Below are positions 11,252 to 54,585 of a DNA stretch of 64,000 nt, piece by piece; the first letter of the stretch is position 1; every line of letters begins with the position of its first letter. The notes beneath the pieces are model-generated. The model saw nothing but the letters and a program-made list of their open reading frames with translations, was not told the origin of the DNA and did not search any database. The DNA is from a virus: positions 1 to 64,000 of IMG/VR virus record IMGVR_UViG_3300044974_000700. One strand, 5' to 3'. Made by a program: the position numbers and the translations under genes.

Positions 11252-11337
11252 TGCATGGAGCGGGCATTTTTGTCCCCGTGCAGTGCGCCTTATAGGCGCA
11301 GAAACCCCCACAGGATCCGCCTCTTGTTGGGGGTTTC
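11252..11337 (+). ncRNA. Candidate structured RNA / terminator (three tandem hairpins)
   Basis: TGCATGG/CCGTGCA with inner GGGCA/TGTCC; TGCGCCT/AGGCGCA; GAAACCCCCA/TGGGGGTTTC followed by a T-rich tail. Confidence 0.4.
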
Positions 11338-11356
11338 GTTTTGCTATAATATATAT

Positions 11357-12630: not shown

Positions 12631-12636
12631 TATATA

Positions 12637-13335: not shown

Positions 13336-13592
13336 TATGCCCTCTCAATTAACCATTCGTTATAAGATTTCTTTTCTGCTTCTGTTCCATATTTTTTAAC
13401 TAGGTAGTCGACTACTTCATCTGAAGTTTTACCATCGAACCATGCGGCTGTTAAAGAAGACCCAATCTCTTGACATTGTTCTTCTGTTAATTCATTAAAA
13501 TCGTGACCCGCCTCTTTTGAAAGGTCATTAGCTAGCTTTGATGTAAACTCTACTAAAAGATCTTCGCTTTTAGTGTACTCTATCCAATTCAT
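13335..13592 (-). CDS. Hypothetical protein
   Basis: GGAGG RBS; coupled to the downstream gene. Confidence 0.6.
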   Translation of the reverse strand: MNWIEYTKSEDLLVEFTSKLANDLSKEAGHDFNELTEEQCQEIGSSLTAAWFDGKTSDEVVDYLVKKYGTEAEKKSYNEWLIERA

Positions 13593-13646
13593 TTTGTGCC
13601 TCCTATTGGCTTATCTTTGCCCTAAACATATTATACATCAAAAAAT

Positions 13647-14393: not shown

Positions 14394-14586
14394 AATTTGA
14401 CCTTAATAAGTGAAAAAAGTGCGAAAAAAGTGCGGCGGCAAAATAAGAACATCAATATTAAATATCCCAATCCCATCCAATTGGAGGCATAAAGCCTAAA
14501 TTCGGATAATCTTCTTGTTTAGGTGCAAATATATGTTCTTTAGGAGTCCATGACCCCATATCAATAACTAACATATATATCATCAA

Positions 14587-14602
14587 TGTTTCACATGAAA
14601 CA
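14587..14602. promoter_or_regulatory. parS-like palindrome
   Basis: TGTTTCACATGAAACA, 15/16 match to TGTTTCACGTGAAACA. Confidence 0.55.
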
Positions 14603-14621
14603 ATATAGGTCATAAATACTC

Positions 14622-15437
14622 CTAAATATTAGCTACTCTTCTTGGTGTTAAATCAGAAGGTATATTTTTAAAATAAAACTTTTCTCTTATATGTTGAGCT
14701 TTTTTGGAAAGAATATCTAGCCATTCTTCTTCACCATATTTCTCCAGACCCTCCAAATATTCCGCACTTGCTTCTTTATTATATACAGCAAAGTATCTAG
14801 CAAAATACTTAGGATTGTCTTTTACTATATGAGATGCATGTAAATAGCGATTATTTGGATCTATATCTGGAGAGCCAGATGGAAATACTATTACATCCCC
14901 CGCCTTTGGTTTATATTGAACAACTTCTTCTCCAGTGTAAAAATCAATTTCTCCGCCATCAAAATCATCATTAAAATATACAGTTATAGTAAAACCAGAT
15001 TTTATACCTGGTTGCCCATCAAATTCATTTTGATAGTCAGTATGATATGTTAATGCATGATCTGGGTCCTCATGTGTGCCTTTATCTGTTGGTTCATATT
15101 TACACACACTAGGACCAGAAATTTGCCATTCATACTGGTCGACTATTTTTTTATAATTATATTTTTCTACATGATGCTTAAATGTAATGTCGACAATTTT
15201 AAGTAGCTCTTGATATATAGATAATTCTTCTTTATTTTTTTCATTTACTGCATTTATATCCTCTAGCGAACAAGTTCTTAATATTTTACCAAACACATAC
15301 CAATCTTCCCAGCTTCCGAGCATGCTACTATTTTTAACTTCAGTATCTTTTATAAATTCAAATGTTTCATCAAGATTTTTAAATAGGTTTCTGTATACGT
15401 TTATGCTTTTGCCTATTTCATAGTTTTCTATTGTCAT
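14622..15437 (-). CDS. 2OG-Fe(II) oxygenase
   Basis: YHTD, YFNDDFDGGE, KPKAGD, H..H...K. Confidence 0.85.
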   Translation of the reverse strand: MTIENYEIGKSINVYRNLFKNLDETFEFIKDTEVKNSSMLGSWEDWYVFGKILRTCSLEDINAVNEKNKEELSIYQELLKIVDITFKHHVEKYNYKKIVDQYEWQISGPSVCKYEPTDKGTHEDPDHALTYHTDYQNEFDGQPGIKSGFTITVYFNDDFDGGEIDFYTGEEVVQYKPKAGDVIVFPSGSPDIDPNNRYLHASHIVKDNPKYFARYFAVYNKEASAEYLEGLEKYGEEEWLDILSKKAQHIREKFYFKNIPSDLTPRRVANI

Positions 15438-15470
15438 ATACTAACTATATCATATCTGTATATCTATAAG

Positions 15471-15545
15471 TAGGCCTAATCGGATTTGAACCGATACTCG
15501 ATTGTATATAAGACAATTGCTTTCACCAGATTAAGCTATAGGCCC
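15471..15545 (-). tRNA. tRNA-Ile(UAU)
   Basis: Cloverleaf GGGCCTA/TAGGCCT, anticodon arm ATTGT-CTTATAT-ACAAT, T-loop TTCAAAT. Confidence 0.88.
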
Positions 15546-15804
15546 GTATATTTGTATTAATAAACCGCATATACAGGTTATTATGGCTATTGCTGTTATG
15601 GTGATAATTAGTCTCATTTTTAGTTTCCCGCCTTTTCTTGTATATATATAATATATATTATATAGTGATATCTGGGAATATTAGATTTTAGGAAAGCCCC
15701 CCTACCCCCCAAAAAGAAAAAATCTTTTAAGAGATAGAGAAGCTACATCTGGTGTATATTGAGTTCCAGTGTAAGCCCCCACAAACCGAACATAAGTGTA
15801 ACAT

Positions 15805-16716
15805 TTATGCTTTATCAAAGTCAATAGGTAGGGTACGATAATATACATCGAACGTGCCTTCCCAATTATTTTTAGTTGCCCACCATCCACGAAATTTTCT
15901 TTTCCTAGAATCAAAACCACCAGTTATTGAATGAGCCATTTTAAAAAGATCTGGTATTAGCAAATCACCTTCTTGCCATTCATGAATAAGACATATATCA
16001 TCTGTTTCGCTAGCAAGAGATTTTGCAACCTTCATCTTAGTTTGCATTGTTTGTTTTGCATACATTGCAATTTGTTCTTTAGTTGGCTTTTCTCCATTTA
16101 TGTTATCTAAACAATTTATTTTTCCAAGATGATTAGGCTGAACACCTAGATTTGCAATCCTATAAGTTTTTTTACCAGTTAAAAAATGGTCAACTGCTAT
16201 TGGTCTATTTGCAATCCATTCATCTCCGATTTTCCAATGTTTGTGTGGATCTGCAAATTCATTTAATCCATGTCCTTCTTTTGGTTCATGATAAACTTTT
16301 ATATATGCAGATAGTGCAAACTCTTTGTCTTCATCCGATAAGTTTTCAAAATATTTATCCATTGGATAAAATAAAGTTCTTCCGTTTTTAGAATCTTCTT
16401 CTTTAAATGTGTGCATATTCCAGCTAGCTGCACATATAGGATTTTCCCAATACGAATGCTCAACATGCCAGTTTAATATACAATGATCATTAGTTTGTTT
16501 TTCTAAAGTGTTATGATCTTCATTATATGCATTAGCAACCTTCCAACCAATTTTTTCTCCCAGCCCCACCATTAATCTTTTTTGTTCTTCAAAACTTACA
16601 AATGCATTTCTAAAAGCTATGAGACCTTGATTAATAAATATATCTCTGTATTTTTCCCAATCGTTTAGGATATTATCTACTCCAGGAAATTCTATTGGTT
16701 TAATAAGTGTTGGCAT
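15805..16716 (-). CDS. TauD/TfdA-family dioxygenase
   Basis: GLIAFRN, WHVE, HEWQEGDLLI.D...H motifs. Confidence 0.75.
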   Translation of the reverse strand: MPTLIKPIEFPGVDNILNDWEKYRDIFINQGLIAFRNAFVSFEEQKRLMVGLGEKIGWKVANAYNEDHNTLEKQTNDHCILNWHVEHSYWENPICAASWNMHTFKEEDSKNGRTLFYPMDKYFENLSDEDKEFALSAYIKVYHEPKEGHGLNEFADPHKHWKIGDEWIANRPIAVDHFLTGKKTYRIANLGVQPNHLGKINCLDNINGEKPTKEQIAMYAKQTMQTKMKVAKSLASETDDICLIHEWQEGDLLIPDLFKMAHSITGGFDSRKRKFRGWWATKNNWEGTFDVYYRTLPIDFDKA

Positions 16717-16977
16717 GTATTTATTATACTATTTTATAATTCTAGTTGACTACTTTTTAGATTTCTAAAAATGTTAATATATTTTTATGATGTATGATGC
16801 ATATCTAATACAAAACGGACATTTCGGATAGTGCGCCCATAATTGTGGCGTATCTCACATGAATTTTGTGTGATGTCAATCACAATGTCCGAATTGTTTG
16901 CATTTTCAACTTGCAATTTGTCAGACCCCCATGATAGTATTTTATTATTAGATAGAAAAAAGAAAGGAAGTTTTATA

Positions 16978-18545
16978 ATGACTTCACTAACACTAGAGCA
17001 AAAGATTATCAAGGCTGCTCACCTTATCGCTGACGGAAAGCCAGTATCTTTCCGAGGTGCTTCATTTGATACATACATGAAAGTAGAACGCCTTGCTAAT
17101 CGTATCAAGCAAGAGCGTGAGTTTCCTCAATGCCCATGCGGTGAGTGTGATTAACCTCACACAATAGACACAGCGTGTCGGCTTGATAAAATTGAATAAA
17201 TCTGAAATAATACTAACTAACTAAAAGAAAGAAGGTAGCATAATGAGTGCTAATCTATACAATGTCGAAAGCCTACTAGTAGGGAAGACCTATCGTAGCC
17301 GCTCCGTAGAGGGCGAAATAGTAGAGGCTGAAAAGCACCCTAAAGCGGTATGGTATGCGGACGCTGAGGCGTATCGTGTGCGTATTCGCAAGAGTAGCGG
17401 AGGTTATACCTACCGCAGCGTAGCGGTGAGTGTGGCATAAGTCACACCACGCCTACGGCGTGTCGCCTTGATAATGTCGGTCATGTGTGATAGTCTAACG
17501 ACATAACAAAATAAGAACTAACGAAAAGGAATAAAAGAAAATGGATAGATACTTACTAATAGAATTAGGCTCAGACGGAATTGCCTTTGAAACCGCTCAA
17601 TTTGATTTCTACGCTTCATGGCTAGGAATTGGAATTGCTATCGTGTCAGTGGTAGCGTATAAGATTTATAAGAACAGAAAGTAAAGGAATAAAAATAATG
17701 TACTCATTTGATAACACTAATACAGAATACAAGTATGAAAGTATTCAACACGGATACGCCATAGAATACTATGATGAAGAAGAACCGCTAGAAATCTCAC
17801 TAGAGGAAATGCTAGAATTAGAAGATGAAGAAATGGAATTGGAAGAAATGGGTGAGATTTATGCCTAAGAATAAATGCTCTATGTGTTATGGTAGGGGCG
17901 TTATCTATGTAGGTAATCGCTATGAATACACAATAGAACCTTGTGAGTGTAAAGCATGAATAGATTACTCACTAGCCTTGTTCAATTAGCCCTTGTCGTA
18001 CCCGCCCTAATTCTAGGGCGCATGGCTTGGGAAATGCTAAAAGAAGATGTGAGAGAACTCACAAAATAATACGGCGTGTCGCCTTGACAAAAGCTGATCC
18101 GCCCGCAGTCTTTTGCGGGCGTTATCCACAGGTTTATGCACAGCTGTGGAAATCCCCGAAATTTTGAGCGTAAGTTATCCACATGACCTAAATCACAAAA
18201 ATAGTTTTGCGACACGCCCGAGATTTGGGCAAAAATGTCAGACCCCTATGCTAGACTAAAGTCATCAAAATAAAGAAAGGAAAACTTAAATGAATAAAAT
18301 TTGTTGCTTCTGCGAAATAGAATTATCTGATGAAATTAAATTTTGCCCTAATTGCCTAGAATACAAAGGCGTAATGACTATTAAAGATTTTGAAACTTAC
18401 TATGGAGAAAGGATTTACTAAAATGGGATTTATTGAATTTGCTAGAATTGACGAAAATGGCGTTGAGTGGGTTAATCTTGAAAACGCTACTAATGACGAA
18501 TTACTAGATTTTGAAATTGCCCTCTTTCAAGAGGGGGCTTTGTGA
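16978..18545 (+). CDS. Cluster of very small early-type ORFs (16978-17154, 17243-17440, 17541-17684, 17698-17868, 17861-17959, 17956-18069, 18290-18421, 18423-18545)
   Basis: Most have an AAAGGA-type RBS or overlap the previous stop; several are below the ORF-track size cut-off. Confidence 0.65.
18122..18183. promoter_or_regulatory. DnaA-box cluster
   Basis: TTATCCACA 18122 and 18175, TTATGCACA 18134, inverted TGTGGAAAT 18145. Confidence 0.65.
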
Positions 18546-18617
18546 TTTAATTCACACCGCTTAATCGGCGTGTCGATTTGATAATCCCGCCAAAATTTGC
18601 TAAAATCGCTCCCATAA

Positions 18618-21600
18618 ATGAAAGGAAAACTAATGAGAACTTACTCTATTGAGGATTTACTAGTAGGACAATTCTATCGCCCTACTTCTTATGCCCGCCG
18701 ATTTTTCGGTGGAGAAATAAATTTCGCTGAAAAGCGAGATGATGTCTGGGTAGGCACGGATTATCAAGCCTATTCAATTCGCTATCGTGTCGGTCAGTCA
18801 GTAAAAAATGAATGGGCTACCATAGCGGTAAAAGTCGCCGACTTATAAATGTCGGTGGCTTCCACTATAATCCAATTACTAACGAAAGGAAAACTAAAAT
18901 GGATTTGATCGAATTTCGCAATTATGTAAAGGCTGAGCGTGAAGCAACACGCCAGCAAAACCTCACCGCAATTTTGTCGGTGGCTTCTGCTACAATTACA
19001 GACAACAACGAACGAAAGGAAAACTAAAATGAAAGTAATTCACACTCTATCTTTTGACTGTGACACCTGCTATGGAAAAGGCTGGTTATTCTATGGCGGA
19101 AATGAGGATTATAATGTTGAACCTTGTGACTGTAATCCTAATTCTGATTTTGATGGCTCACTATTCACGAACGGAGAAAACGAATAATGTATAAAATAAC
19201 TGTTGCCTATGATGAAAACGCTCCCCACTATAATCAACAATTTTCAGATGAACTAGAGGCTCACAAAAGTTTTGCTAGTTATGTGGATTGGGGATTTGCT
19301 AACGAATACTCAACTGTAAATCTTTTTACACCTAACGGAAAATGCTATACAAAAATTTTCTATCGTGAAGGTAGAAGGGTGGTTGAAAAATAATGATGAC
19401 ACGCAAAGACTATGTTGCTACCGCAGAAATTCTGCGGTATGTATCAGATAAAACTCACCCTGCTGTATTTTCTAAAATGGTTGTAGATTTTGCGGAGATG
19501 TTCGCAAAAGATAATCCAAAATTTGACGCAACAAAATTTTATTCCGCAAGTAATTATAAAATTCCAAGTTTTAGGAGTTGAAATGAAATTACCAAATAAA
19601 GAAAGAATAAAAAAAGTTTTGGAAATTCGCCGCAGTAATGCGGCGCAGCCAATTCCTAGTAAAAAAGTTTATTCACGAAAACGAAAACATAAAAAAACCG
19701 CAGTCGGAAAATCTATGAATTGGGATTAGTTGAAATTTCAACTAAGCGCCCGCAAAAGACTGTGGGGGCCAAAAGCTCGTTACGTCAAGTCAGAAATATG
19801 CTGGAAATTTGTGAGGTTTATCACAAAAAATAATTTCCGACACGCCGATACTCAAATAGAAATTGTCAGTAATCTAATGTATAATTCCAACCATAACAAC
19901 AACGAAAGGAAAAAAATGACAGACACAACTAACTGGGCTAAATACCCATTCACCGTAGATGGTGTGGAATTCGTATCACTACTAGACCCTAATGGCTCTA
20001 TGTATCAACAGGTATCTCGCATTCCTGCTTCTCTATTTACTACTATGAACGAGGGCGCTATCCGTGAAATCGTCGGTAAAGTTTCTCTAATGTCTAAGTC
20101 TGAAATTCAAGCAGAACTAGACCGTGTAAATGACGGATACTCTCAGGCTTATTTAGCCTTAGCCTAAAATGTCGGTGGGCTAGTGTATAATCTAGCCCAC
20201 TAACAACAAACGAAAGGGAATTATGTTATCAACTGCTTCTGCTCTACTTGAGGCTACTCAAGAGGGAATAATTGGCGATGAACAAATGGAACTTGCTTCT
20301 TTTATTGTAAATGCTCGCCACGAACTAGACCAAGAACAATTTGCTAAAGCGATGTTTATGTATGCTACTGCTATTGCTTCATGCGTAACTGATAAAGTTA
20401 CTAAAGTGTTACTAACTGAAACACAATTTAGAGAACTAATTGAAACTATTGACGAAATGGAAACAATGTCTAACGAGGTGTTAAATGGGAAGTAATTTTG
20501 CTACTGATTTAGCTGACTATGATTTAGGATTAGATTTATCTACTGCCTTAGAGATACACTTAACTTCTAATCATTACCCGCCCATTCCTAAAACTATGGT
20601 GCTTCCTTGTATTGAGGCGCTTGAGGCTTATTGGGAGGATGAAACTGATCGTGAGATACCTATGCCCGAAGGCGTATCCTACAAAGGTGGGAATACCGCA
20701 CCAGCATGGGCTATTATTGAACAACACCACCTAGAGGCGTGGCTATAAAAAATGTCGGTGGGGTGGTGTATAATCACCCTGTCAAACTAACGAAAGGAAA
20801 CAAATGCTAGAAATCGGACAAACCTATACAACCACTACGAGTGGAATTGTTGGAATTATCAAGGCGATTGATAATCACCCAAGTGGAGTAAATCGTATTC
20901 TCCTTGATGTAAATGGCGCAGAACGCTGGACAAGCGCACCTGCTAACTAACAACTAAATAGGCAGGGCTCACCTAAAATGTCGGTGGGCTCTGCTATAAT
21001 AAAGAACTAAAACCATAACGAAAGGAAATCAAATGGCTAGAAATGGAAAAGCGATAAATGTAAAAATCGCTACAACTAAAGTAATCAAGGCACTAGAGGG
21101 TGCGTTGGCTAAGTTAGAAAAAGAGTTTGCTTCACAAGAGGCAAATGAGGCTAAGCACGACAAGGCAGTAAAGGCATGGAATAAAGAGGTTGCTAAACTT
21201 GCTATGTCTGCTATCAACAAGGCAGAGGATTTGTCTGCTCATACAAGATACAATGGCGAAATCCAAGTATCTTTCTCACTACCTAAAAACTCTATTGAAA
21301 TACCTGCTGAACCTAAGAAAGACTATGTGTCTATCCATGAGTGGCAGTATCGTGAGAATAAAGAGGAAATTGAGAACGCAATTCGTATTCTCAAGATGAC
21401 AGATGAGGAAGTCGTAAGCACTTCTACTTACAACGCTATCGCTCGTTATCTCTAATAAAATGGGGGCTAGACAAAATCTAGCCCCCTATGTTAGAATACT
21501 CTAACGCAAAAGAACCCTGACCTGAGTAAGTCAAGTGATAAACTGCTCAACCAATTATCCCTACTAACAGAAAGTAAAAAAAATGCGTAATAGATTTAGA

Positions 21601-21840
21601 ATTGAAATCTATGATGAAAATAAGTTAAACGATTTAACTCTTTACTCAGAACAAGGCGTAGATAAAGAATACTTAACTGAAATGGTGTTTTCTAATTTAT
21701 CTCAATTTTCTGGTAAAGTAAAAGCATATGTCTATGATGAATTAAAAAAGAAAAAGACAGTTGCTTTATTAATACCTGAAGAAACTGTAACTAAATATAA
21801 ACCAAAACAATTAACTAGAATTGAGTTAGGTTTAATTTAA
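18618..21840 (+). CDS. Small early-type hypothetical ORFs (18618-18848, 18899-19027, 19029-19187, 19187-19393, 19393-19581, 19583-19729, 19916-20167, 20223-20495, 20485-20748, 20804-20950, 21033-21455, 21583-21840)
   Basis: Strong RBS (often AACGAAAGGAA) and individual promoters; no function recognised. Confidence 0.7.
21518..21549 (+). ncRNA. H-type pseudoknot RNA element, copy 1
   Basis: TGAC-CTGAGTAA-GTCA...AAACTGCTCA; homologous to 50475-50504. Confidence 0.55.
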
Positions 21841-22014
21841 AATAATTGGGGCGGGTTTGAACTGTGTAATCATCTAGATCCCCGCCCCAATCAAATTTTG
21901 CCCGCAAAGACTGTGGGGGCACAAAGCTCTTTACGTCAAATTATAAAAATCCCTTAAATTAATTGTAAATGTCAGTGGCACCTGTTATAATAATGGCCTA
22001 GCGAAAGGAAAAGT

Positions 22015-22731
22015 ATGTTAAAACGCTCGAAAGATAGAAAGGTCGCTAATGCCGTCTCCCCTAATGGAAAAACCCCAACAATTGCCAACACTTTTGGATT
22101 GCCTGCTGGAAAGAATTTCTCGTGTCCTGGTGCCACAAGTATTTGTGAAAGCGTATGCTACGCAGGAAAACTTGAAAAAGTCTACAAGGGAGTAAAAGCC
22201 GTACTCTTACACAATTGGGAATTGCTACGCAATGCAGACCATGACACTATGGTATCCCTAATTGATAGCATGATTGTGGAATTCAAGGCGGAATGCGATA
22301 AGCGTTCTGCAGATAAACTATTCCGCATTCACTGGGATGGCGATTTCTTTAATGATACTTATGCATATGCGTGGAAGACAGTAATCGAAAGCCATAAGGA
22401 TGTTCAATTTTGGGTATATACTCGTGTCTCTTCTGCCGCCGTCATTCTAAAAGATATTTCTAACCTATCTCTTTATTATTCTACCGATGATGAGAATAAA
22501 GATATTGCTGCAGGCCTACGCAATGAACACGGTACACGTCTTGCATATTTAGGAAAAACTTTTGCAGTCACCGAAACTACTATGAAAGAATTAACGGGTA
22601 AAGTGGGTGCAAAGTGTCCTGAAAATAATAAATCAATTCCGCTAATATCTACTAATGGTAGCGCATGTGTATCATGCGGATTGTGTGTATTTAATAAAGC
22701 AGATATTCGATTTTCTGCAAGCAAAAAATAA
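22015..22731 (+). CDS. Gp88-like protein (radical-SAM-like Cys motif)
   Basis: CPGATSICESVCYA, FRIHWDGDF, FWVYTR, C-terminal CP...CVSCGLC. Confidence 0.75.
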   Translation: MLKRSKDRKVANAVSPNGKTPTIANTFGLPAGKNFSCPGATSICESVCYAGKLEKVYKGVKAVLLHNWELLRNADHDTMVSLIDSMIVEFKAECDKRSADKLFRIHWDGDFFNDTYAYAWKTVIESHKDVQFWVYTRVSSAAVILKDISNLSLYYSTDDENKDIAAGLRNEHGTRLAYLGKTFAVTETTMKELTGKVGAKCPENNKSIPLISTNGSACVSCGLCVFNKADIRFSASKK

Positions 22732-22924
22732 GATCGGCAGCGAAAGCTGCCCGCAAGAACTGTGGGGGCGCCGAGCTCTTTACGTCAAGTCCAAAACACC
22801 CCTGGATTTTGTGATAATGCTCACAGATGTCCAATTTGCCCCATCTTACATCTAATCTATTGCCAAATGTCGGTGGGGTAGTGTATAATTCAGATTCAAT
22901 CTAACAATGAAAGGAAATAAATTC

Positions 22925-23935
22925 ATGGCTCACAACCTAGAAATGAATGGCAACGATGTTGCTTTTGCCCTACGTGGCACACCTGCTTGGCATAATCTTG
23001 CCAATCGTATCTTCTCACAAGATGAAGACGTATCAACTCAACTAATGCTAGATGAGGCTAAACTTTCCAATTGGGATGTTCGCTTATCTCCATTATCCGA
23101 TTTTGTTCCTGCTGATTGGAATGAAACTTCAGATTCACAATTAGTTATTAGAACTAATCCATTTACAAATGGAACTGATGTTTTATCTACTGTAGGCTCA
23201 CGATATAAAGTGGTTCAGAATGAAGAACTATTTTCATTCGCTGATAATATCCTAGATGGCGATTCTCGCTGTGCTTGGGAATCTGCTGGTTCATTAAAGA
23301 ATGGTAAAGTCGTTTTCGGCTCCCTTACTGTTCCCCGTGAAATGGTATTAGACCCACAAGGTGCTAACGATACAACAAAATTGTATCTAATCGTTTGGAC
23401 ATCTCACGATGGTTCTGTCGCTGTTCAAGCAGCAATCACGCCTGTGCGTGTTGTATGCCAAAACACTTTGAATCTCGCAATGCGCTCTGCTAAGCAATCT
23501 TTCAAGATTCGCCATACTCAGACCGCTGAGGGTAAGATTCAAATCGCTCGTGAAACTCTTGGTCTAACTCTTGGATACTTTGATGCGTTCGAGAAAGAGG
23601 CTCAGGAATTGTTCAAGTCAGAAATTACTGATAAGCAATTTTCTGAACTTATCAAGACTATTTATCCTAAGCCTGCGGAAGATGCTTCCAAATTGGCTTT
23701 AACTAAGTGGGAGAATAAAGTTGTCTTGCTTGATGACCTTTATCATAATTCTCCAACGAATGCTAATATCAAGGGAACTAAGTGGGGCGCATTCAACGCT
23801 CTAACTGAACGCCTTGATTATTTCCGACCAACTCGGAAAAATAATTCAGAATCTAAGTGGGCTTCTGCTTCAGGTTTTGACCCGATTATTACTGCTGAGA
23901 AAAATAAAATTCTTCAAGTTGTAAAATCATTCTAA
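22925..23935 (+). CDS. DUF932-family phage/plasmid protein
   Basis: PAWH, YKVVQNEELF, ESAGSL, SHDGS, PVRVVCQNT, IRHT, GTKWGAFNALTE. Confidence 0.85.
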   Translation: MAHNLEMNGNDVAFALRGTPAWHNLANRIFSQDEDVSTQLMLDEAKLSNWDVRLSPLSDFVPADWNETSDSQLVIRTNPFTNGTDVLSTVGSRYKVVQNEELFSFADNILDGDSRCAWESAGSLKNGKVVFGSLTVPREMVLDPQGANDTTKLYLIVWTSHDGSVAVQAAITPVRVVCQNTLNLAMRSAKQSFKIRHTQTAEGKIQIARETLGLTLGYFDAFEKEAQELFKSEITDKQFSELIKTIYPKPAEDASKLALTKWENKVVLLDDLYHNSPTNANIKGTKWGAFNALTERLDYFRPTRKNNSESKWASASGFDPIITAEKNKILQVVKSF

Positions 23936-23940
23936 AGAAT

Positions 23941-23960
23941 GGGGCCCCGCAAGGGGCCCC
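23941..23960 (+). terminator. Intrinsic terminator
   Basis: GGGGCCCC-GCAA-GGGGCCCC followed by a pyrimidine tail. Confidence 0.65.
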
Positions 23961-24114
23961 TCCTCTTTGATCTAATTTGACAAAGCTGCAAAACGCCCGC
24001 AGAAGCTAAAGGCAGAAAATGTGTTTTACGTCACATTTTAAAAATCCTCTAAAACCCTGGACTTTTGTCAGTGAGGTCCGCTATAATACTCCACATAACA
24101 ACGAAAGGAATAAA

Positions 24115-25571
24115 ATGGAAACAGTAACAAATGATATGTATAACCCACATTCATTGGTAACTCTTAAGAAGATTATCAATACAGAAAGCGGAGATGTACA
24201 GTTTGAACTATATAAGGTTACAGAACTAGAATCAGTTCTAGATGAAATGACTCGTCGCAATAATCTTATTTCACAACGTATCGAAGCACAAGAAAAACAA
24301 ATTGGTCAGATTATAGATAACTTAACTGCACAGGGTTGGTATAACCCTAATTATGAGAAGTCAGAAGTTTTGTCAGACCTATGTGATATTCTTGGCCATG
24401 AACCAAAGCAAGAAATTCGTATTACTGCAACCGTGCAGGTTGAAGTTGTATATGACTGCCCACTTGATGAGGTTGAAGACTTTGACGCAAGATATTTCTT
24501 GCAAGATGTACTTACAGTTGATGCATATAATGGAGATGTCATTGTTGAGTCATTCGATGTTGAAGATGCGGACGTGAACTGGTAATGTATTATCAATTAC
24601 AGGCACCCACTAGCGCAGCCTGCAAGGCTGCCTATTGGGAGGCAGAGTTTTCAGGGCTTGACCCATATTGGCTTGAATCTAATGTATTTGAATTAGGAAC
24701 AGGAAGCATTGAAAAAGTTTCTGCCTTGATTTCCAAATATAATCTTGATATACTAGTTGAATCAGATTATCAACCAACTGGTTACACAAGGAGGTAGTAT
24801 GGATTACAAAGACGGTTTTGAAGACGGAGTTAAGTTTACTCGTGAAGTCATCATTGCTAATATTCGTAAATGGGCTGAGGATTCTATTCTTGGAGAAGAA
24901 GGAGCAATTATGGATAGCATTGCAGATAAAATCGAATTTGGGACATTAGACAATGACCTCTGAGGATCTTACAATAGAATGGATTAAATGTGATTCTTGC
25001 TCTGCCCGTGCAGCTTGGGTTGCACGTGGTACTAGTGGTGAGCTTACATTTTGTGGACACCATTTAAATAAGAATAAGCAGGCCCTTGACAGTTGGGCCT
25101 ATGAAATTATAGAATTGGGTAAAGAAGAACTACCTAAAAAACAAACTAGACGAAAGGCGGTACAAAATGGGTGACAGAGCAAACTTTGTATTTGTTCAAC
25201 CAAGCGGAGAAACCATTGTTTTATACGGACACTGGGCAGGACATGGCATGTTAGAAAAATTAGGTGAGGCTGTAGCAAAAGCACAGCCACGCTGGACGGA
25301 CCCTTCATATGCTACACGAATTGCTATCAGTCAAATGATTGGCGACGGATGGGGCATGGAAACTGGATGGGGCCTGCAGGTCAATGAGATATCTGATAAT
25401 GAGCACAAGATTCCTGTGATTAATTGGATAGACCAAACAATGTCTCTGCATGAAGAGGATTCATTCTATAACGAATCTAATAAGGTCCGTGGAATGAAGA
25501 ACGACGCTATATTTACCATGGACTTGAGAACGTTTGTAGAGAAATACACAGACGCCAAGATTTTGGTATAA
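24115..25571 (+). CDS. Hypothetical early ORFs (24115-24585, 24585-24797, 24799-24963, 24953-25174 with CDSC/CGHH zinc motif, 25167-25571)
   Basis: Translationally coupled ORFs with RBS. Confidence 0.7.
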
Positions 25572-25578
25572 TATTAAT

Positions 25579-25701
25579 AATGAGGTGCCGCTACTAGCGA
25601 TTCCGCAAGTGGTTAACTAAAGCAGCGTTTACTTAAATTCCTTTCGTTTGGCTAGCAGCCTCATGTTAATAGGGCCCCTGGAATCCAGGGGCCCTTCCTT
25701 T
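25579..25701 (+). ncRNA. Candidate trans-acting sRNA containing the antisense of the early-gene leader
   Basis: Own TGGTATAAT at 25564-25572; closing stem ATGAGG/CCTCAT plus GCTACTAGC/GCTAGCAGC; TTCCTTTCGTT at 25638-25648; terminator GGGCCCCTGG/CCAGGGGCCC at 25672-25694. Confidence 0.55.
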
Positions 25702-25866
25702 TGCCCGTAGTTTGTGAGGGTAGCAAAAGCTTGTTACGTTGTCAAGCCAAAATCCCCTAAAATTGTGAGGTTTTGATCACAAACCTTACACTACATGTGA
25801 GGTTTATCATATAGACATTTGTCAGTGGGTGGATGTATAATAATGCCAATAACGAAAGGAAATAAT

Positions 25867-26616
25867 ATGCCAAACTGGGTATATAACGGATTAACTATAG
25901 AGGGAAATCCACAATTAGTCAATACATTGGTAGCACAATTAAATAAGCCATTTGTTCAAGTTCATGATTCATGGAACATGGAAAATGGTCAAATGGAAAA
26001 AAAGCAAACTACATATCCTAATCCTGTATTTGCATTTCATAATATCTATAATCATTTACAAGCAAGTATTACTGAATATGAATATCTTCAGCAACCCGAC
26101 CATAAATTACCAATTGCAGAACAAATGAAATTTGCAACAAATGATTGGTATTCATTTAATGTTCGTGAATGGGGAACAAAATGGGATGTTGCTGTATCTT
26201 CAGATAATGAATATCCTGATACATATATTGAAGGACCTACTCCTAATGGAGAGAATCTAGTTGTATATTATAATTTTAATACTGCTTGGTCTCCACCGTT
26301 CCCTGCCCTTGCAAAATTATCTGCACAATATCCAGCATTACTACTTACACTTAGTTATGAAGAAGAAACAGGTTGGGGTGGTGAATGTGAATTCCTACGT
26401 GGTGAAATGATATCTAATTCAGAATATGAAAGCATGTGTCGTGATTGTGAAGCAACAGATACATTAGATTATTGTGAGAATGACTGTGGCCAAATCTGTT
26501 CTAAATGTAATTGGCTTGGGGAGGCAGACCTAGAATGTGTCAAAGAATGTCAGACCCATAAGATATACTTGGATTCCGAGCATGTCCCTGATTATAGAAT
26601 GGAGCAAATCAAATGA
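25867..26616 (+). CDS. DUF1281/YubB-like ferredoxin-fold protein
   Basis: MPNW, WY..N...WGTKWD, FNTAWSPP; Cys-rich tail. Confidence 0.75.
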   Translation: MPNWVYNGLTIEGNPQLVNTLVAQLNKPFVQVHDSWNMENGQMEKKQTTYPNPVFAFHNIYNHLQASITEYEYLQQPDHKLPIAEQMKFATNDWYSFNVREWGTKWDVAVSSDNEYPDTYIEGPTPNGENLVVYYNFNTAWSPPFPALAKLSAQYPALLLTLSYEEETGWGGECEFLRGEMISNSEYESMCRDCEATDTLDYCENDCGQICSKCNWLGEADLECVKECQTHKIYLDSEHVPDYRMEQIK

Positions 26617-27809
26617 GTTTCCTAGAAGAAGCCAACATTAACCAAATGGTTATTGATTATGAGATACAAGTAATATCAGAACATCTATTTGATGAATGGA
26701 TGAATTCTAATTTAGATGAAGGTTCATTTTATGCAGATTATCAATTTGCAGTAATGTGTGATTCTAAAGAGATTAAACAAGCATTTAATCAATTCTATAA
26801 TTTAAAGGAGGATGATGAACATTATGTTGGGTTATAAATTAAAAGATGTAGAAGAAATGGTTGAAGGTTTATTGAATGTACATGAATCTTTACCTGATTC
26901 TAGGAATAAAGAAGAAGTTTGGTTAGCCGCCGACTTTTTAATTGGATTAATGGAAGAGGGGCATGTTCAATAATGGAATCAGAATACATTCGTAGAACTG
27001 GTCAACTGAAAGAATATATAAAGCTCCATATAATTAGTTTGGAACAAGACTTAGAGGGAATTGCTGAACAAATGGAAATGCTTGACCCTGAATCTAAGGA
27101 ATGTAAAGAACTAGATTTTGAATATAATCATTGGAGTGGGCAATTGCTTTCTGCCCGCCACATTTTGTCAGTGGCAGAGGATATACTAGGATGATGTACA
27201 CAACTGAACTACCAGACAATCTACAGAAACTTGTCGACATGAACATCCCTGGAACCGATATCTTGCACGGTGAACTTAAGTGGCTAATGAAAGAGGCCGA
27301 AGAGCAACTGGAGTTGGCACAGGAGGCAGAGAACAAGACTGGCGAAGCCATGGATTCCATGGACCGCAAATATTGGGAGGGACAGTTAGACGCTCTCTCA
27401 CATGTATATGCATTAACATACCAATTAGCATTTGCAATAGACGAAAGGACAAAAGCACGTGGCTGAATTAGATCTAAATAAACTATATAACGATATGGTT
27501 GATATCAATGACAGGATTACCAAACTTCCTGTATTCCCGTCCCTTGGCTGGGTATGGACCTTTGACATCTTAAAAGATATCTTTGATAACAATCATGAAG
27601 ACGGTATGGCTGAAGGTGACATCATTGATGAGGTCGTTCCTACTGCAGTTACCTTACAACAAATCTTTAATAAGTTCTACGAAGACATCGACAAGTTGGA
27701 CCTTAACATGGACCAAGGTGGCGAAATGTTGGAGGAGACAATCAGAGACTGGATGAGAGACAACGACTTCCTCGTTGCTCTAGACGAAGACGGGTGGTTA
27801 GATGACTAG
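26613..27809 (+). CDS. Acidic hypothetical ORFs (26613-26837, 26973-27194, 27191-27466, 27459-27809)
   Basis: Coupled ORFs; 26973 and 27191 products share a (Y/H)W.GQL motif. Confidence 0.65.
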
Positions 27810-28122
27810 AAAAGACTATAAGGTATTTGGGGACAAGTTGTCCAAGTACTATGTAACAATCAATGCCGAGTCCCCTGACATTGCGTGGGAGGCGGCGGCA
27901 GGCATGGATACACATCAATGGGAACAGGTCCCAACTGATTATATAATCGAACCATATGCAGTAGAAGAAATATAATAGATCTATGAGCTTTGTCTTGAAA
28001 TCGGACATTTCGGACAAAAGCTATGGGCAAAGGGCCCAAAAAATGCTTTACGCAGGTATTTACAAATTCGTGGAAATCTGCTAAAATATACATTAATAAC
28101 TGATCATGAAAGGATCAAACAA

Positions 28123-28272
28123 ATGACTACACCAACAACTACACGTGAATATCTAAAGGCCCAGGGAATTACCGTGGGCAAGCGTGGTCGCTTCTCAGCT
28201 GCAGCAAAGAATGCAATCTCAGAGGCTTCTAAGAAGGGCGTTGTCTTCTCAGACAAGAAGAACGTCAAGTAA
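28123..28272 (+). CDS. Stand-alone Lsr2-type DNA-binding domain (49 aa)
   Basis: MTTPTTTREYLKAQGITVGKRGRFSAAAKNAI..., matches Lsr2 C-domain RE....G..V..RGR; GAAAGGA RBS. Confidence 0.7.
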   Translation: MTTPTTTREYLKAQGITVGKRGRFSAAAKNAISEASKKGVVFSDKKNVK

Positions 28273-28370
28273 CAATAGATGTGGTCCCCTGCAGCCTCTG
28301 GTGGGAAAACTGGGAGGGTTGCGGGGGATTCACCTTTTTGATATAATGCTAACAAAGAAAGGCGGACACA

Positions 28371-28700
28371 ATGGCAAAATCATCAGAAGAAAAACTAGCA
28401 GAGAAAATCACAGACGAACTGTCTAATCATTATTTTAATGTATCAGTTCTAGCAAATGTCCTAACTACTTATTATCCTATTTATACACAAGATAGGTTAA
28501 TGGAATTAGTTAAATATATCATCAAGTATAACTCTATTCGGATGAAATCCGAATGGGAAGCCAATGAAGTCACCAGCGACGGATTATTGTTGGCGGATGC
28601 TCTAAATGATTTAATAGAAACCCTAAGACCTGAACCTCCACTAGTAATAAATCAAAGAATAAGAGATTCCAAATATCTAATGGATTTGGATAGCTTCTAA
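28371..28700 (+). CDS. Hypothetical protein
   Basis: AAAGGCGG RBS; TGATATAAT upstream. Confidence 0.65.
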   Translation: MAKSSEEKLAEKITDELSNHYFNVSVLANVLTTYYPIYTQDRLMELVKYIIKYNSIRMKSEWEANEVTSDGLLLADALNDLIETLRPEPPLVINQRIRDSKYLMDLDSF

Positions 28701-28726
28701 TTAAATAAATATATCTAGCCCAATTA

Positions 28727-29110
28727 GCACATATAACTTTAAATAGTTATATGTGCTTTTTGTTGTGCAAAATTATGGGCCAAATATTCTTTTTACGACA
28801 ATTGATCAAAATCGTGGAAATTTCATATCATATCGATCAAAATCTGTCAATAATATAACAGAATGTTATATAAATGTGACAAAATTGATCAAAATCATGT
28901 GGGCCAATTTGATCATTTACGAACAATTTTCAAAAATCGTGGAAATTTTATATGAAATCTATTGACAAATATTGATCAATATGCCACATTTGACATTACG
29001 GCGTATGAAATGATATGCTCAATTACTCATATATCTTTTTGTTATAAATATGATAGTAATTGCTAGATAATTAATAGCATAATTCTCCACTTTGCTCCAC
29101 AATTCTCCAT
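28727..29110. repeat. AT-rich non-coding region with short iterated motifs (TTGATCAAAATC, AATCGTGGAAATTT, CTCCAC)
   Basis: Repeats at about 28802, 28833, 28885, 28933, 28972; hairpin GCACATATAACT/AGTTATATGTGC at 28727-28756. Confidence 0.65.
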
Positions 29111-29180
29111 TTTAAAATAGCCAGAATGGCCTATAACAGGAGATAAATTGGAGGGGGATGATAGGAGGTCTACTTTGGAT

Positions 29181-29459
29181 TTATTTGCCTAGAATCTGCT
29201 TTATAAGCTCTATTGGCGTAGTTGGATCTTCATCTGGTAGTGAACCATATTTATGTAATAATTTAAGTAATATGCCAGCTATGAATACATCATCTGAATA
29301 TGCCATCCATGGGAATAATATATCAAATAAGTCTATAGGTACTAATATGTATCCTACACACGCCACCGCCACAATTTTGACCCATATTGGAGATCTATTA
29401 AATTGATCTTTATAGGGTCTAATTATTTGGCGAAATGGGGTTCTATTTTTGCGTTTCAC
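29181..29459 (-). CDS. YkvA/DUF1232 membrane protein
   Basis: YILVPIDL.D..FP...YSDD. Confidence 0.7.
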   Translation of the reverse strand: MKRKNRTPFRQIIRPYKDQFNRSPIWVKIVAVACVGYILVPIDLFDILFPWMAYSDDVFIAGILLKLLHKYGSLPDEDPTTPIELIKQILGK

Positions 29460-29613
29460 TTAATCCCATAAATTATATGCATATTCAGGACTATTTAAAC
29501 TAATCATTCTAGACTTGTTACATGGACATGGTGGAGCTTTATGTATCTTATCTTCTGGTAATTCAGTCTCTATTGTTAATAATGTCTTACATTCCTTACA
29601 TTTAAACATATAT

Positions 29614-44069: not shown

Positions 44070-45119
44070 CTATTTATAAAATTCGGAGTCCATGTCCTCA
44101 TGCATTTCAATATGGCTGAGCTGGCTTAAAGCATTTTCTAATTCGGCTTTAAGCCCAATTAATTCCTGAATGGCATTATAATATTTGTCTTTCCATTCGG
44201 TTAATTCCTTTTCTAATTTATATAGGTCTATTTTTAGGTCTTTTATCTCTAATTTAAGATGGTCTTTTTCCCGTTCTTCCCGCCTAATTTTTTCTTTTTT
44301 AGAGTCCCTGAAGCCAGCTACTATGGCTGTACCCATACCGCTAAGAATTGCTGCCAAAAGAGACAGTACCAATGTCACATAATTGATTTCCATTATATAG
44401 ACAATTATACAGCAAAATTACATTTAAACTAATAGTTCTGATGCGGTTATTTCTTGACCAATATATCTTTTCTTTTGAATTACTTCTTTTACGAATTCAT
44501 GACCGCTTGATCTGCCAGCCAAAATTATAACCCAGCGTGGTTCGTATTTTGAGTCTATGCAGGTCTGACACATAAATAAATTAATTGGCATTAAGGTTGA
44601 TTGCTTAACAGATAATTTATTTTTTGTTTTATTGCATGAATAGCAAAGTATTTTTTCCATTATTCCTCTTCTATGAAGGTGAGATCTTCATTTTCAATAT
44701 CTTCATATTGAATTTTACCATCTTTAAAATATCTAACTTTTGACATAAATAAACCTATGGAGATGGCTTCTCCATAAAGATTTTCAGAATGTATTAACAC
44801 TCTAACCGATTCCTTTTGCACTTGGTACCCCTTCAAGTTCGCATCTTACTCCGTAGGACTCTATCATCTTTTTTACTCTTGTAACATAATCTATAACTTG
44901 TTCTTTTTTACTTCCAGTAAACTGTATAAAGTTATCTTCATATAATCTTAAAGCTAGGAATTCTGGATATTTAACAACATCCATTTCCAAAAGAAGCGGC
45001 TTGTTCATTTCCCTAAGCCTTTTTCTCATCTCTTCGTTGTAAAACACTGGCTTGTTAGGTTCACCAGTCCAAAGATTAACGCCATGCTTAAAATGGTTTT
45101 TATCGTTATTAGATACCAT
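44070..45119 (-). CDS. Hypothetical ORFs (44070-44393 TM + coiled coil, 44424-44660 Zn finger, 44802-45119)
   Basis: ORF track, co-oriented operon. Confidence 0.6.
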
Positions 45120-45420
45120 TTTTTTTGTTAATCTGCTTCCAAATTTCTTTTGTTTTATGAGTATTTCTCATTTTATCTACTCCGCCTGCATTTAAATAAA
45201 TACCGCCCCATACTCCGTATTCATTGTTTTCTATTCCAGACTGATAACACATATCTATTACTGGGCAAGACAAACAACACTGATCTATATTGGCTGCTAT
45301 TTTGGGATCAAGTTCGTACTTATCAAAAAATAAATTTGTATCCATTCCTTGACATGCTGCTAGATGCCACCAATTGAGATTGTCTTCGTCTGTGTTTAAA
45401 TCATTTAAAATATTTGACAT
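45109..45420 (-). CDS. whiB: WhiB-family transcription factor
   Basis: W...AAC, CLSCPV...C, GVWGG. Confidence 0.9.
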   Translation of the reverse strand: MSNILNDLNTDEDNLNWWHLAACQGMDTNLFFDKYELDPKIAANIDQCCLSCPVIDMCYQSGIENNEYGVWGGIYLNAGGVDKMRNTHKTKEIWKQINKKNGI

Positions 45421-54429: not shown

Positions 54430-54430
54430 G

Positions 54431-54503: not shown

Positions 54504-54508
54504 TTGTG

Positions 54509-54581: not shown

Positions 54582-54585
54582 TAAG

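What the first reader, a model, noticed from the sequence alone, without database searches (positions are those of the whole stretch)
16919..27187. Phage early island driven by at least 17 host DNA-damage (PafBC / RecA-NDp) promoters
Seen: TGTCRG followed exactly 10 nt later by TANNNT at 16919, 17475, 17644, 18236, 18850, 18975, 19864, 20170, 20753, 20979, 21970, 22868, 24066, 24371, 25820, 26548 and 27166. All are on the plus strand, 11 read TGTCRGTG-N8-TANNNT, and most sit just before an RBS. TGTCRG hexamers I checked outside the island lack the spaced -10. Established: tTGTCRgtg-N8-TANNNT is the actinobacterial RecA-NDp motif, whose -26 element is bound by the WYL-domain activator PafBC, switched on by single-stranded nucleic acid during DNA damage. 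Inference: the phage plugs its first-expressed genes into the host LexA-independent damage response, so infection-generated ssDNA or host UV stress would switch on or boost the programme. No WYL gene is in this window; a phage-encoded activator elsewhere is the alternative.
Basis: partly seen in the sequence, partly recalled or inferred. Interest (0 to 1): 0.93.

Follow-up and report, generated by a model that had tools for sequence, protein, structure and literature searches.

The report
Lake phage promoters copying PafBC boxes
An uncultured freshwater phage of actinobacteria drives one block of about 30 small genes from 17 promoters built exactly like the host promoters that PafBC, the cell's single-stranded-DNA alarm protein, switches on, so it probably borrows that host switch, though nothing has been tested at the bench.

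Summary
All 17 TGTCRG-N10-TANNNT sites exist, all on the + strand, against 0.83 expected by chance. The 85.5-kb contig has no others.

The motif is a conserved promoter class. 80 related lake-phage loci carry 1090 sites on the gene strand and 3 on the other. Spacing is fixed at 10. There is no -35, and 15 of 17 sites lie 23-44 nt before an RBS and ATG.

Sequence and geometry match the published PafBC motif tGTCgg(N10)tA(N3)T with its -26 element (PMC8635444).

The phage and five complete relatives encode WhiB, an actinobacterial marker. They encode no WYL, HTH_PafC or sigma-70 region 2.

An order of small, low-GC actinobacterial genomes has PafC in 41 of 41. Twelve of 12 recA loci examined carry the motif.

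Not shown: PafBC dependence, transcription starts or timing. The rest of the phage uses near-consensus -35/-10 promoters on the other strand, so "first-expressed" is doubtful.

This scan already noted the same thing on other DNA: 83 notes in at least 69 genomes. My searches found no paper describing it.

The parts
16919..16940 (+). PafBC-type promoter, TGTCAGACC subclass. It is the first of the island, in the divergent gap. It drives the 58-aa ORF 16978-17154.
   Evidence: gap of 37 nt to RBS+ATG; repeat family D6
17475..17496 (+). PafBC-type promoter that also has TTGATA at -35 with a 17-nt spacer. It drives ORF 17541-17684.
   Evidence: gap 44
17644..17665 (+). PafBC-type promoter in the 3' end of the preceding ORF. 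It drives ORF 17698-17868.
   Evidence: gap 32
18236..18257 (+). PafBC-type promoter, TGTCAGACC subclass. It drives ORF 18290-18421.
   Evidence: gap 32; 30.5 bits
18850..18871 (+). PafBC-type promoter. It drives the 42-aa ORF 18899-19027.
   Evidence: gap 27
18975..18996 (+). PafBC-type promoter inside the 42-aa ORF. It drives ORF 19029-19187.
   Evidence: gap 32
19864..19885 (+). PafBC-type promoter (TGTCAGTAA). It drives ORF 19916-20167.
   Evidence: gap 30
20170..20191 (+). PafBC-type promoter. It drives ORFs 20223-20495 and 20485-20748.
   Evidence: gap 31
20753..20774 (+). PafBC-type promoter. It drives ORF 20804-20950.
   Evidence: gap 29
20979..21000 (+). PafBC-type promoter with the best match to the family matrix. 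It drives ORF 21033-21455.
   Evidence: 35.2 bits; gap 32
21970..21991 (+). PafBC-type promoter. It drives the GP88-family gene 22015-22731.
   Evidence: PF17338, 181 bits; gap 23
22868..22889 (+). PafBC-type promoter. It drives the DUF932 gene (start 22925, end 23935).
   Evidence: PF06067, 191.6 bits; gap 35
24066..24087 (+). PafBC-type promoter. It drives ORF 24115-24585.
   Evidence: gap 27
24371..24392 (+). Motif match inside ORF 24115-24585 with no RBS or start nearby. Its function is doubtful.
   Evidence: nearest candidate start 89 nt away
25820..25841 (+). PafBC-type promoter. It drives the Api92-like (DUF1281_C) gene 25867-26616.
   Evidence: gap 25
26548..26569 (+). PafBC-type promoter, TGTCAGACC subclass, in the 3' end of the preceding gene. 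It drives ORF 26613-26837.
   Evidence: gap 43
27166..27187 (+). PafBC-type promoter followed by ATG ATG at 27191-27196. This suggests a leaderless or near-leaderless transcript for ORF 27191-27466.
   Evidence: gap 3
21476..21497 (+). Degenerate relative of the TGTCAGACC subclass. ATCTAG stands in place of TGTCAG, and CCCCC, TATG and TTAGAAT are kept. It lies upstream of ORF 21583-21840 and would not be a PafBC site.
   Evidence: family D6. ATCTAG is the commonest non-TGTCRG hexamer at -28 to -23 in relatives (10 of 835).
16843..28965 (+). The island: about 30 small + strand ORFs, flanked on both sides by - strand genes.
45109..45420 (-). WhiB-family gene, the marker for an actinobacterial host. 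It lies outside the island and has no motif site in front of it in this contig.
   Evidence: PF02467, 47.1 bits against a cut-off of 23.6; present in 6 of 6 family genomes, and among 14 control genomes only Corynebacterium matched.

Best explanation
The 17 sites are promoters of the PafBC (RecA-NDp) type. Each has a -10 element, mostly an extended TGnTAtAAT, and a TGTCRG '-26 element' at -28 to -23 in place of a -35.

In the infected actinobacterial cell, housekeeping RNA polymerase with sigma-A would bind the -10. The host heterodimer PafBC, activated by single-stranded DNA, would sit between sigma region 4 and the TGTCRG box ('sigma adaptation') and start transcription of one or two small genes per promoter. 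The island would then be a phage regulon gated or boosted by the host's ssDNA alarm. That ssDNA could come from infection, phage replication, nuclease action or outside DNA damage.

Shown here:
- The motif, its rigid geometry, its strand bias and its position before genes.
- Its conservation in a large phage family.
- Its identity to the host promoter class.
- The lack of a recognisable phage-encoded reader.

Inferred:
- That ssDNA is the trigger.
- The timing of expression.
For: 1. Real and non-random. There are 17 sites against 0.83 expected. They are the only ones in the contig and the only matrix hits.

2. Conserved across relatives.
- 80 related loci hold 1090 sites on the + strand and 3 on the - strand in 1.06 Mb.
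- Two complete relatives have 16 and 17 gene-strand sites in a single island.
- The spacer is fixed: N10 gives 1090, N9 gives 8, N11 gives 1.
- Without conditioning on the box, 617 of 835 strong -10 hexamers placed 18-48 nt before RBS+ATG carry TGTCRG exactly at -28 to -23. The opposite strand gives 0 of 32.

3. Match to the published motif. PMC8635444 gives tGTCgg(N10)tA(N3)T, a -26 element at -23 to -28, no -35, and a GTC triplet read by two PafB arginines (passages). The unconstrained positions of the phage logo add T at +6 (72%), G or C at +7 and +8, and no information at -35.

4. Host.
- WhiB is present in 6 of 6 family genomes.
- GP88 relatives come from Mycobacterium, Streptomyces or Fromanvirus phages in 386 of 390 records.

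5. Host machinery.
- 200 of 201 sampled genomes of the class have WYL proteins.
Their sizes are 1.2-2.2 Mb, and 20-kb samples from 4 of them have 40-49% GC.
- G069's PafB matches solved PafBC structures: 6sj9 at 2.5e-41 and 7p5x at 1.3e-38. It keeps the RMFER arginines.
- PafC and tatC follow it on the chromosome.

6. Same box in use in such genomes.
- 12 of 12 recA loci have nGTCRG-N10-TAnnnT.
- In G069, sites also precede a RadA-like gene, a LysM gene and a DUF6504 gene, the last two with LexA boxes.

7. No phage reader found. WYL gives 0 of 6 family genomes, HTH_PafC 0 of 6 and Sigma70_r2 0 of 5. Five of the six for WYL and HTH_PafC, and four of the five for Sigma70_r2, are 100% complete by CheckV.

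8. Separate promoter class. The rest of the genome uses near-consensus -35/-10 promoters on the - strand: 17 against 2.4 expected in G203 and 9 against 2.3 in G206.
Against: - There is no binding, transcription-start or induction data. The RNA-library contigs I laid cannot show starts.
- The exact host is unknown, and the tool does not name the genomes I used as host stand-ins.
- The phage -10 elements are much stronger than host ones. TATAAT is the commonest, and G at -14 occurs in 81%. Such promoters may fire with sigma-A alone, which would make PafBC a booster at most.
- 149 of 828 unique sites belong to a TGTCAGACC subclass. PafBC use of that subclass is not documented in anything I read.
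- In G069 the bare pattern is no commoner than its reversed control (13 against 12). The pattern alone does not prove a PafBC site.
- Streptomyces phage LukeCage shares the DUF932 gene but has 0 sites in the 21.8 kb fetched around that gene (1-21793 of the record). The device is lineage-specific.
- An older paper assigned the motif to a ClpR-like regulator (cited in PMC3381160).
- Pfam-negative does not exclude a novel phage-encoded reader.
Confidence: 0.6

Rival explanations
1. The sites are self-sufficient extended -10 sigma-A promoters. The TGTCRG box is read by an unrecognised phage-encoded protein. That protein could be an activator made from the canonical promoters of the other strand, as MotA/AsiA act at T4 middle promoters, or a repressor that shuts the island off.
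For: - A strong TGnTAtAAT is present at most sites.
- The other strand carries near-consensus sigma-70-type promoters that could express such a factor first.
- Most phage ORFs have no family assignment.
- The box sits where T4's MotA box sits; the comparison is made in PMC8635444.
Against: - It needs a phage protein to have arrived at the very sequence, position and spacing of the host PafBC box.
- No WYL, HTH_PafC or sigma-70 region 2 was found in five complete relatives (four for sigma-70 region 2).
- A repressor site would not need the invariant N10 spacing seen across 1090 sites whose spacer sequences differ.
Confidence: 0.2
2. The box is read by another host factor, not PafBC. Candidates are the ClpR-like regulator once assigned to RecA-NDp, or a factor tied to the neighbouring GACAC/GTGTC and CRP-like elements.
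For: - PMC3381160 (passages) cites ClpR as the regulator of RecA-NDp.
- The island is also rich in CRP-like GTGA-N6-TCAC palindromes, with 6 of the contig's 7.
- It is rich in GGCGTGTCG elements too. GCGTGTC also lies near 7 of 12 host recA promoters.
Against: Later structural work places PafBC on this element inside the initiation complex, with base-specific contacts to GTC (and the abstract). The extra elements accompany only a minority of the 17 sites.
Confidence: 0.1
3. The repeats are mainly recombination or mosaic-junction cassettes that are copied together with genes. They would have no special regulatory reader.
For: Contigs from RNA libraries of relatives join different genes exactly at these motifs: 18871>20785, 21976>18879, 22889>22014 and 27174>25843 (tables 5 and 5c). 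Gene content between sites varies widely among relatives.
Against: Position-specific conservation with variable spacers, the fixed distance to RBS+ATG and the strict strand bias are promoter features. Shuffling at promoters is compatible with, and probably secondary to, promoter function.
Confidence: 0.05

Closest known systems
PafBC-dependent (RecA-NDp) promoters of Mycobacterium and other actinobacteria, read by 'sigma adaptation' (PMC8635444; PMC11804915)
   Same: The same box (tGTCgg), the same N10 spacing to tA(N3)T, the same position at -28 to -23 and no -35. The same box lies before recA in 12 of 12 small actinobacterial genomes examined here.
   Different: - The sites are on a lytic-looking phage, not a chromosome.
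- There are 16-20 copies packed into about 10 kb.
- They lie before small genes of unknown function rather than repair genes.
- The -10 is near-consensus and extended.
- An AAA run lies just upstream.
- There is a distinct TGTCAGACC subclass.
- No LexA boxes accompany them.
T4 middle promoters (MotA box at -30 plus -10, read with AsiA: 'sigma appropriation')
   Same: A phage gene class defined by a -10 plus a box that replaces the -35. It is read through sigma region 4. A second, canonical promoter class exists elsewhere in the genome.
   Different: T4 encodes its own reader. Here no phage reader is detectable, and the box is the host's own. T4's mechanism remodels sigma region 4, whereas PafBC does not.
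SOS-coupled prophage switches (RecA-stimulated cleavage of LexA or CI-type repressors)
   Same: A phage programme tied to the host's DNA-damage signal, single-stranded DNA.
   Different: Those switches work by removing a repressor, in temperate phages. Here an activator-type promoter is multiplied across a gene block. No tyrosine integrase was found in 6 of 6 family genomes; serine integrases were not searched.
REP13E12 family genes of M. tuberculosis, which carry RecA_NDp and are damage-inducible (PMC3381160, passages)
   Same: A repeated, non-repair gene family placed under the RecA-NDp promoter type.
   Different: Those are chromosomal repeats in a high-GC pathogen. That they are mobile-element related is my recollection, not something I read. 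They are not a phage gene block.

Membership tests
PafBC-dependent (RecA-NDp) promoter class | Upstream box tGTCgg with an invariant GTC triplet | tested here: met
   17 of 17 sites. 617 of 835 unconditioned -10 candidates in relatives have TGTCRG, and 638 have NGTCNN. The motif is taken from PMC8635444.
PafBC-dependent (RecA-NDp) promoter class | Exactly 10 nt between the box and a tA(N3)T -10, which places the box at -28 to -23 | tested here: met
   Relatives: N10 gives 1090, N9 gives 8, N11 gives 1. This contig: N10 gives 17, and other spacings give 0-2.
PafBC-dependent (RecA-NDp) promoter class | No -35 consensus | tested here: met
   The logo of 828 unique sites shows less than 0.15 bits at positions -7 to -4, where a -35 hexamer would begin. 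Only an AAA run appears next to the box. A few single sites have a partial -35.
PafBC-dependent (RecA-NDp) promoter class | The organism that reads it has PafB and PafC | tested here: inconclusive
   The host is not identified. It is an actinobacterium by WhiB. PafC occurs in 41 of 41 genomes of an order of small low-GC genomes. PafB there matches solved PafBC structures.
PafBC-dependent (RecA-NDp) promoter class | PafBC binding with RNA polymerase and sigma-A, with activation by ssDNA or DNA damage | not testable with these tools
   This needs in vitro transcription, ChIP or reporters.
Canonical sigma-70/sigma-A promoter (-35 TTGACA, 16-18 nt, -10 TATAAT) | A -35 hexamer at 16-18 nt from the -10 | tested here: not met
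   No -35 signal in the logo. The promoter-like scan of the island is not above shuffles (56 against 43.5, sd 6.7). The - strand of the genome does carry such promoters.
Phage-encoded reader systems (T4 MotA/AsiA type, phage sigma factors, phage WYL regulators) | The phage encodes the protein that reads the box | tested here: not met
   WYL 0 of 6, HTH_PafC 0 of 6, Sigma70_r2 0 of 5. A protein of an unknown family is not excluded.

The most novel reading that the evidence does not exclude
The island does more than borrow PafBC. It may be an alarm-gated module that also works as a PafBC sponge.

Genes read from canonical promoters start replication and nuclease action; a Cas4-like exonuclease lies on that strand. 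These make ssDNA, which activates host PafBC. The 16-20 near-optimal PafBC promoters on every phage genome copy then capture the activator.

That would switch on some 30 small takeover or counter-defence genes at the moment the cell raises its DNA alarm. It would also draw PafBC away from host repair and defence promoters. The host could not escape without giving up its own damage response.
Probability: 0.15. Interest if true: 0.85.

Novelty: new variant of a known kind. Interest (0 to 1): 0.72.

Why it matters
PafBC and 'sigma adaptation' are known only as a chromosomal DNA-damage switch. A large, abundant family of lake phages that builds a whole gene block on that promoter type, with no recognisable reader of its own, would be a different case.

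- It would be the first example of a virus wiring genes to a host ssDNA-sensing WYL activator rather than to repressor cleavage.
- It offers about a thousand natural promoter variants for dissecting what PafBC needs in a promoter.
- It may give a sequence-only clue to the hosts of uncultured actinophages.
- It suggests testable ideas about how phages time their genes, or blunt host alarms, in the most abundant freshwater bacteria.

The searches I ran found no paper describing it.

Tried and rejected
RNA evidence. One run search and one lay gave only Logan contigs, from four metatranscriptome studies (X15-X18). Short pieces 90-99% alike cover 23-29 of 30 bins of 16500-29500. The two flanking bins have almost no cover. 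Contigs cannot show starts, strand or level, and DNA carry-over was not controlled. I draw no conclusion on transcription or start sites.

Host naming. The ribonucleotide reductase search in genome contigs returned 15 loci in MAGs labelled from many phyla (Saccharibacteria, Bacteroidia, Brevundimonas, cyanobacteria, an archaeon, Aquiluna). I read these as phage contigs binned by mistake and use none as host evidence. I used the Aquiluna MAG only to get a handle into the class.

Habitat. Apart from the two possible source samples, 12 rows from 11 studies of lake or freshwater metagenomes hold 79-96% of the sampled words.

Independent phage lineages. Loci rich in sites but without protein matches to this contig (L246, L257, L274, L268) are fragments that CheckV rates 10-41% complete. 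Only the complete record among the six searched (G211, from locus L209) has WhiB. I cannot claim a second, unrelated lineage.

Cultured relatives. The 21.8 kb fetched around the DUF932 gene of Streptomyces phage LukeCage has 0 sites.

Pattern count in G069. There are 13 sites against 12 for the reversed control, so there is no overall excess. Only the identity of the downstream genes is informative.

Wrong spacing by my own slip. One search used one N too many (box-to-(-10) spacing of 11). It returned 72 stretches with one match each.

Flanking genes. I checked them for a regulator and found only oxygenase-type and metabolic families.

Not tried: serine integrases, structure prediction of island proteins, complex prediction.


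Full report
WHAT IS THERE

The pattern TGTCRG-N10-TANNNT occurs 17 times in the window, at exactly the coordinates given and always on the + strand. Shuffles give 0.83 on average and never more than 4.

The window is the first 64 kb of an 85,553-bp IMG/VR virus record with 35.1% GC. CheckV rates it 71% complete. The whole record has no further site on either strand. A weight matrix built from relatives finds nothing else above 9 bits apart from one weak hit.

Other spacings give 0-2 matches. Eleven of the 17 sites read TGTCRGTG.

The sites lie in a + strand block of about 30 small ORFs (16843-28965). Genes on both sides of it are on the - strand. For 15 of 17 sites the -10 ends 23-44 nt before a Shine-Dalgarno plus ATG, often within the shared leader AACGAAAGGAA. 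Site 27166 is followed at once by ATG ATG, which looks leaderless. Site 24371 is internal to an ORF and doubtful.

IT IS A CONSERVED PROMOTER CLASS

The GP88-family protein of the island (PF17338) has at least 594 relatives in IMG/VR. I kept the best 80 loci, at 78-95% identity.
- These 1.06 Mb hold 1090 sites on the gene strand and 3 on the other.
- By spacer length the counts are: N10 1090, N9 8, N11 1, N8 15 and N12 111. I take the N12 count to be the same sites read two bases further along TATAAT; that is my inference.
- 1090 of 1391 gene-strand TGTCRG hexamers have the spaced -10, against 3 of 230 on the other strand.

The logo of 828 unique sites reads AAA-TGTCAG-T-[G/C][G/C]-n-n-t-c-T-G-n-TAtAAT. 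That is an extended -10 plus a box at -28 to -23, with no information where a -35 would lie.

I also tested the box without conditioning on it. Of 835 strong -10 hexamers lying 18-48 nt before RBS+ATG, 617 carry TGTCRG at -28 to -23. On the opposite strand the figure is 0 of 32.

Two complete relatives were checked in full (G203 and G206, each 100% by CheckV). They have 17 and 16 gene-strand sites, all within one island.

The same pattern with one extra base hit 72 stretches with a single match each.

There are sequence subclasses: TGG after the box in 319 of 828 sites, and ACC in 149 of 828. Their -10 elements and distances to starts are similar.

WHAT IT MATCHES

PMC8635444 (passages read) gives the in vivo PafBC motif as tGTCgg(N10)tA(N3)T. 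The 3' part is the sigma-A -10. The 5' part is a '-26 element' at -23 to -28. There is no -35. The GTC triplet is read by two arginines of PafB. PafBC sits between sigma-A region 4 and the DNA ('sigma adaptation').

The abstract of PMC11804915 says ssDNA binding to the WYL domains activates PafBC.

The phage sites meet every sequence criterion of this class.

THE HOST SIDE

The contig and five complete relatives each encode a WhiB protein. Among 14 control genomes, only Corynebacterium matched at that threshold. PMC10202952 (text read) treats whiB as the indicator of actinophages.

GP88 relatives in the cultured-phage collection come from 283 Mycobacterium, 99 Streptomyces and 4 Fromanvirus records out of 390.

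Twelve DNA rows from 11 lake or freshwater studies, leaving out the two possible source samples, hold 79-96% of the sampled words. The phage carries 8 tRNA genes, most reading A- or T-ending codons. Together with its 35% GC this suggests, but does not prove, a host somewhat richer in GC.

- 200 of 201 sampled genomes of one actinobacterial class have WYL proteins. That tally includes seven unpublished genomes.
- In the order that contains G069, all 41 sampled genomes have HTH_PafC above the cut-off. Thirty-nine of these genomes are 1.2-1.7 Mb.
- 20-kb samples from four of them have 40.3-48.6% GC.
- I infer that this order is the streamlined freshwater 'Ca. Nanopelagicales'.
- G069's first gene of the pair matches solved PafBC and PafB chains over its full length (6sj9 at 2.5e-41, 7p5x at 1.3e-38) and keeps the RMFER arginines. 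The second gene is PafC (105.6 bits), and tatC follows.

All 12 recA loci fetched have nGTCRG-N10-TAnnnT upstream together with a LexA box. Nine of the 12 are from that order. Ten have T as the first letter and two have C.

In G069 the other matches precede a RadA-like gene (leaderless spacing), a LysM gene and a DUF6504 gene; the last two have LexA boxes. This parallels the mycobacterial case of Rv2719c described in PMC3381160.

Phage site 21970 and the recA promoter of G140 are identical at 18 of 22 positions, including the first 15 (compared by eye).

NO PHAGE READER FOUND

WYL, HTH_PafC and Sigma70_r2 gave no match at E up to 1 in this contig or in the complete relatives. WYL and HTH_PafC were searched in five complete relatives, and Sigma70_r2 in four.

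No tyrosine integrase was found in 6 of 6. Genes flanking the island are oxygenase-type and metabolic.

The rest of the genome, on the - strand, has near-consensus -35/-10 promoters in its intergenic gaps.
- This contig has 14 hits with at most 1 mismatch of 12, against 5.2 in shuffles. Ten of them are on the - strand.
- G203 has 17 on the - strand against 2.4 expected, and G206 has 9 against 2.3. Their + strands are at chance.

So the phage has two promoter classes, separated by strand. Host polymerase should read the canonical class unaided. The island is therefore not obviously the first-expressed block. It may be delayed, or conditional on ssDNA.

A Cas4-like exonuclease (61200-61976) and the replication functions on the canonical strand could supply that ssDNA; this is inference.

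The phage -10 elements are also much stronger than the host examples, so some PafBC-independent activity is likely.

In G203 the single opposite-strand site lies just upstream of whiB.

PRIOR KNOWLEDGE

Searches for RecA-NDp with phage, PafBC with bacteriophage and promoter, PafBC with phage infection, PafBC with mycobacteriophage, and the literal 9-mers found no paper describing phage promoters of this type.

A 2025 paper on pafBC and mycobacteriophage resistance is cited in PMC12848934. I could not read it. Supplements were closed.

This scan's own notebook already holds 83 notes in at least 69 genomes with the same reading on related DNA. I reached my reading before seeing them and tested it independently here.

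VERDICT

Interpretation: the promoter class and the actinobacterial link are well supported. 'First-expressed' is not supported.

Novelty: a known promoter and activator type used in a new way by a virus.

Noticed in passing
window 16870, 17147, 18049, 18542, 19811, 22811 (and 42743): CRP-like palindromes GTGA-N6-TCAC. Six of the contig's seven lie in the island. Three head a repeated 52-nt module (17138, 17423, 18533) that continues into GGCGTGTCG and a TTGATAA -35-like element (families D4 and D9). This looks like a second, canonical-type promoter cassette.
   Followed up: partly
window 17173, 17458, 18074, 18568 (+); 18217, 19845 (-); host loci L100, L101, L104-L106, L330, L331: The phage element GCGTGTCG occurs 4 times forward and 2 times inverted. 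It resembles GCGTGTC found 15-26 nt upstream of the LexA box in 7 of 12 host recA loci. The other five recA loci have GCGACAC just upstream of the PafBC box. It may be a second cis-element shared by host and phage.
   Followed up: partly
window 19748-19803, 21899-21954, 22748-22803, 23994-24049: A 56-nt multi-part element (GCCCGCAAAGACTGTGGGGGC ... TTACGTCAA ... AAAATCCC) lies 10-60 nt upstream of four of the PafBC-type promoters (family D1).
   Followed up: no
window 18120-18190: Two TTATCCACA (DnaA-box-like) words and a GC hairpin lie between the promoter cassettes (sequence seen).
   Followed up: no
window 28063-28102, 28807-28846, 28932-28971: Iterated AAAATCGTGGAAAT-containing 40-nt repeats at the AT-rich end of the island (families D7 and D16). 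This may be an origin or a binding array.
   Followed up: no
window - strand: 74922, 73521, 70052, 56339, 45697, 43083 and others; G203 and G206: Near-consensus TTGACA-16/18-TATAAT promoters are enriched on the strand opposite to the island: 17 against 2.4 expected in G203 and 9 against 2.3 in G206. This is a second promoter class, for the replication and structural genes.
   Followed up: yes
window 18871>20785, 21976>18879, 22889>22014, 27174>25843: Contigs of relatives in RNA libraries join different genes exactly at the promoter motifs (tables 5 and 5c). The promoters seem to serve as mosaic junctions for shuffling gene cassettes.
   Followed up: no
G203:C1:21573 (- strand): The only opposite-strand site in this complete relative lies just upstream of its whiB gene (21353-21526, - strand). 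A canonical promoter lies at 21851 as well. In this window's contig whiB has only the canonical promoter.
   Followed up: partly
G069:C1:477153-506363: Nine of the 13 pattern matches in this 1.5-Mb actinobacterial genome fall within 30 kb. Some lie before an HD-domain gene, a VWA gene and a C-5 DNA methylase, the last in a stretch of lower GC (41.6-43.1%).
   Followed up: partly
window 15470-15545, 54356-54659, 55747-55904, 56224-56298: Eight tRNA genes: Ile-TAT, Leu-TAA, Lys-TTT, Thr-TGT, Asp, Asn, Arg-TCT and Met. Most read A/T-ending codons, as expected for an AT-rich phage in a host of higher GC.
   Followed up: no
window 11255-16716, 34313-37319, 45694-46323: An unusual number of 2OG-Fe(II)/TauD/Asp-Arg-hydroxylase-type oxygenases. 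There are also a luciferase-like monooxygenase, an AdoMet decarboxylase and a carbamoyltransferase.
   Followed up: no
window 61200-61976 (-): A Cas4-domain/RecB-type exonuclease (phrog_1706, 1.8e-53) on the canonical-promoter strand. It is a possible source of ssDNA during infection.
   Followed up: no
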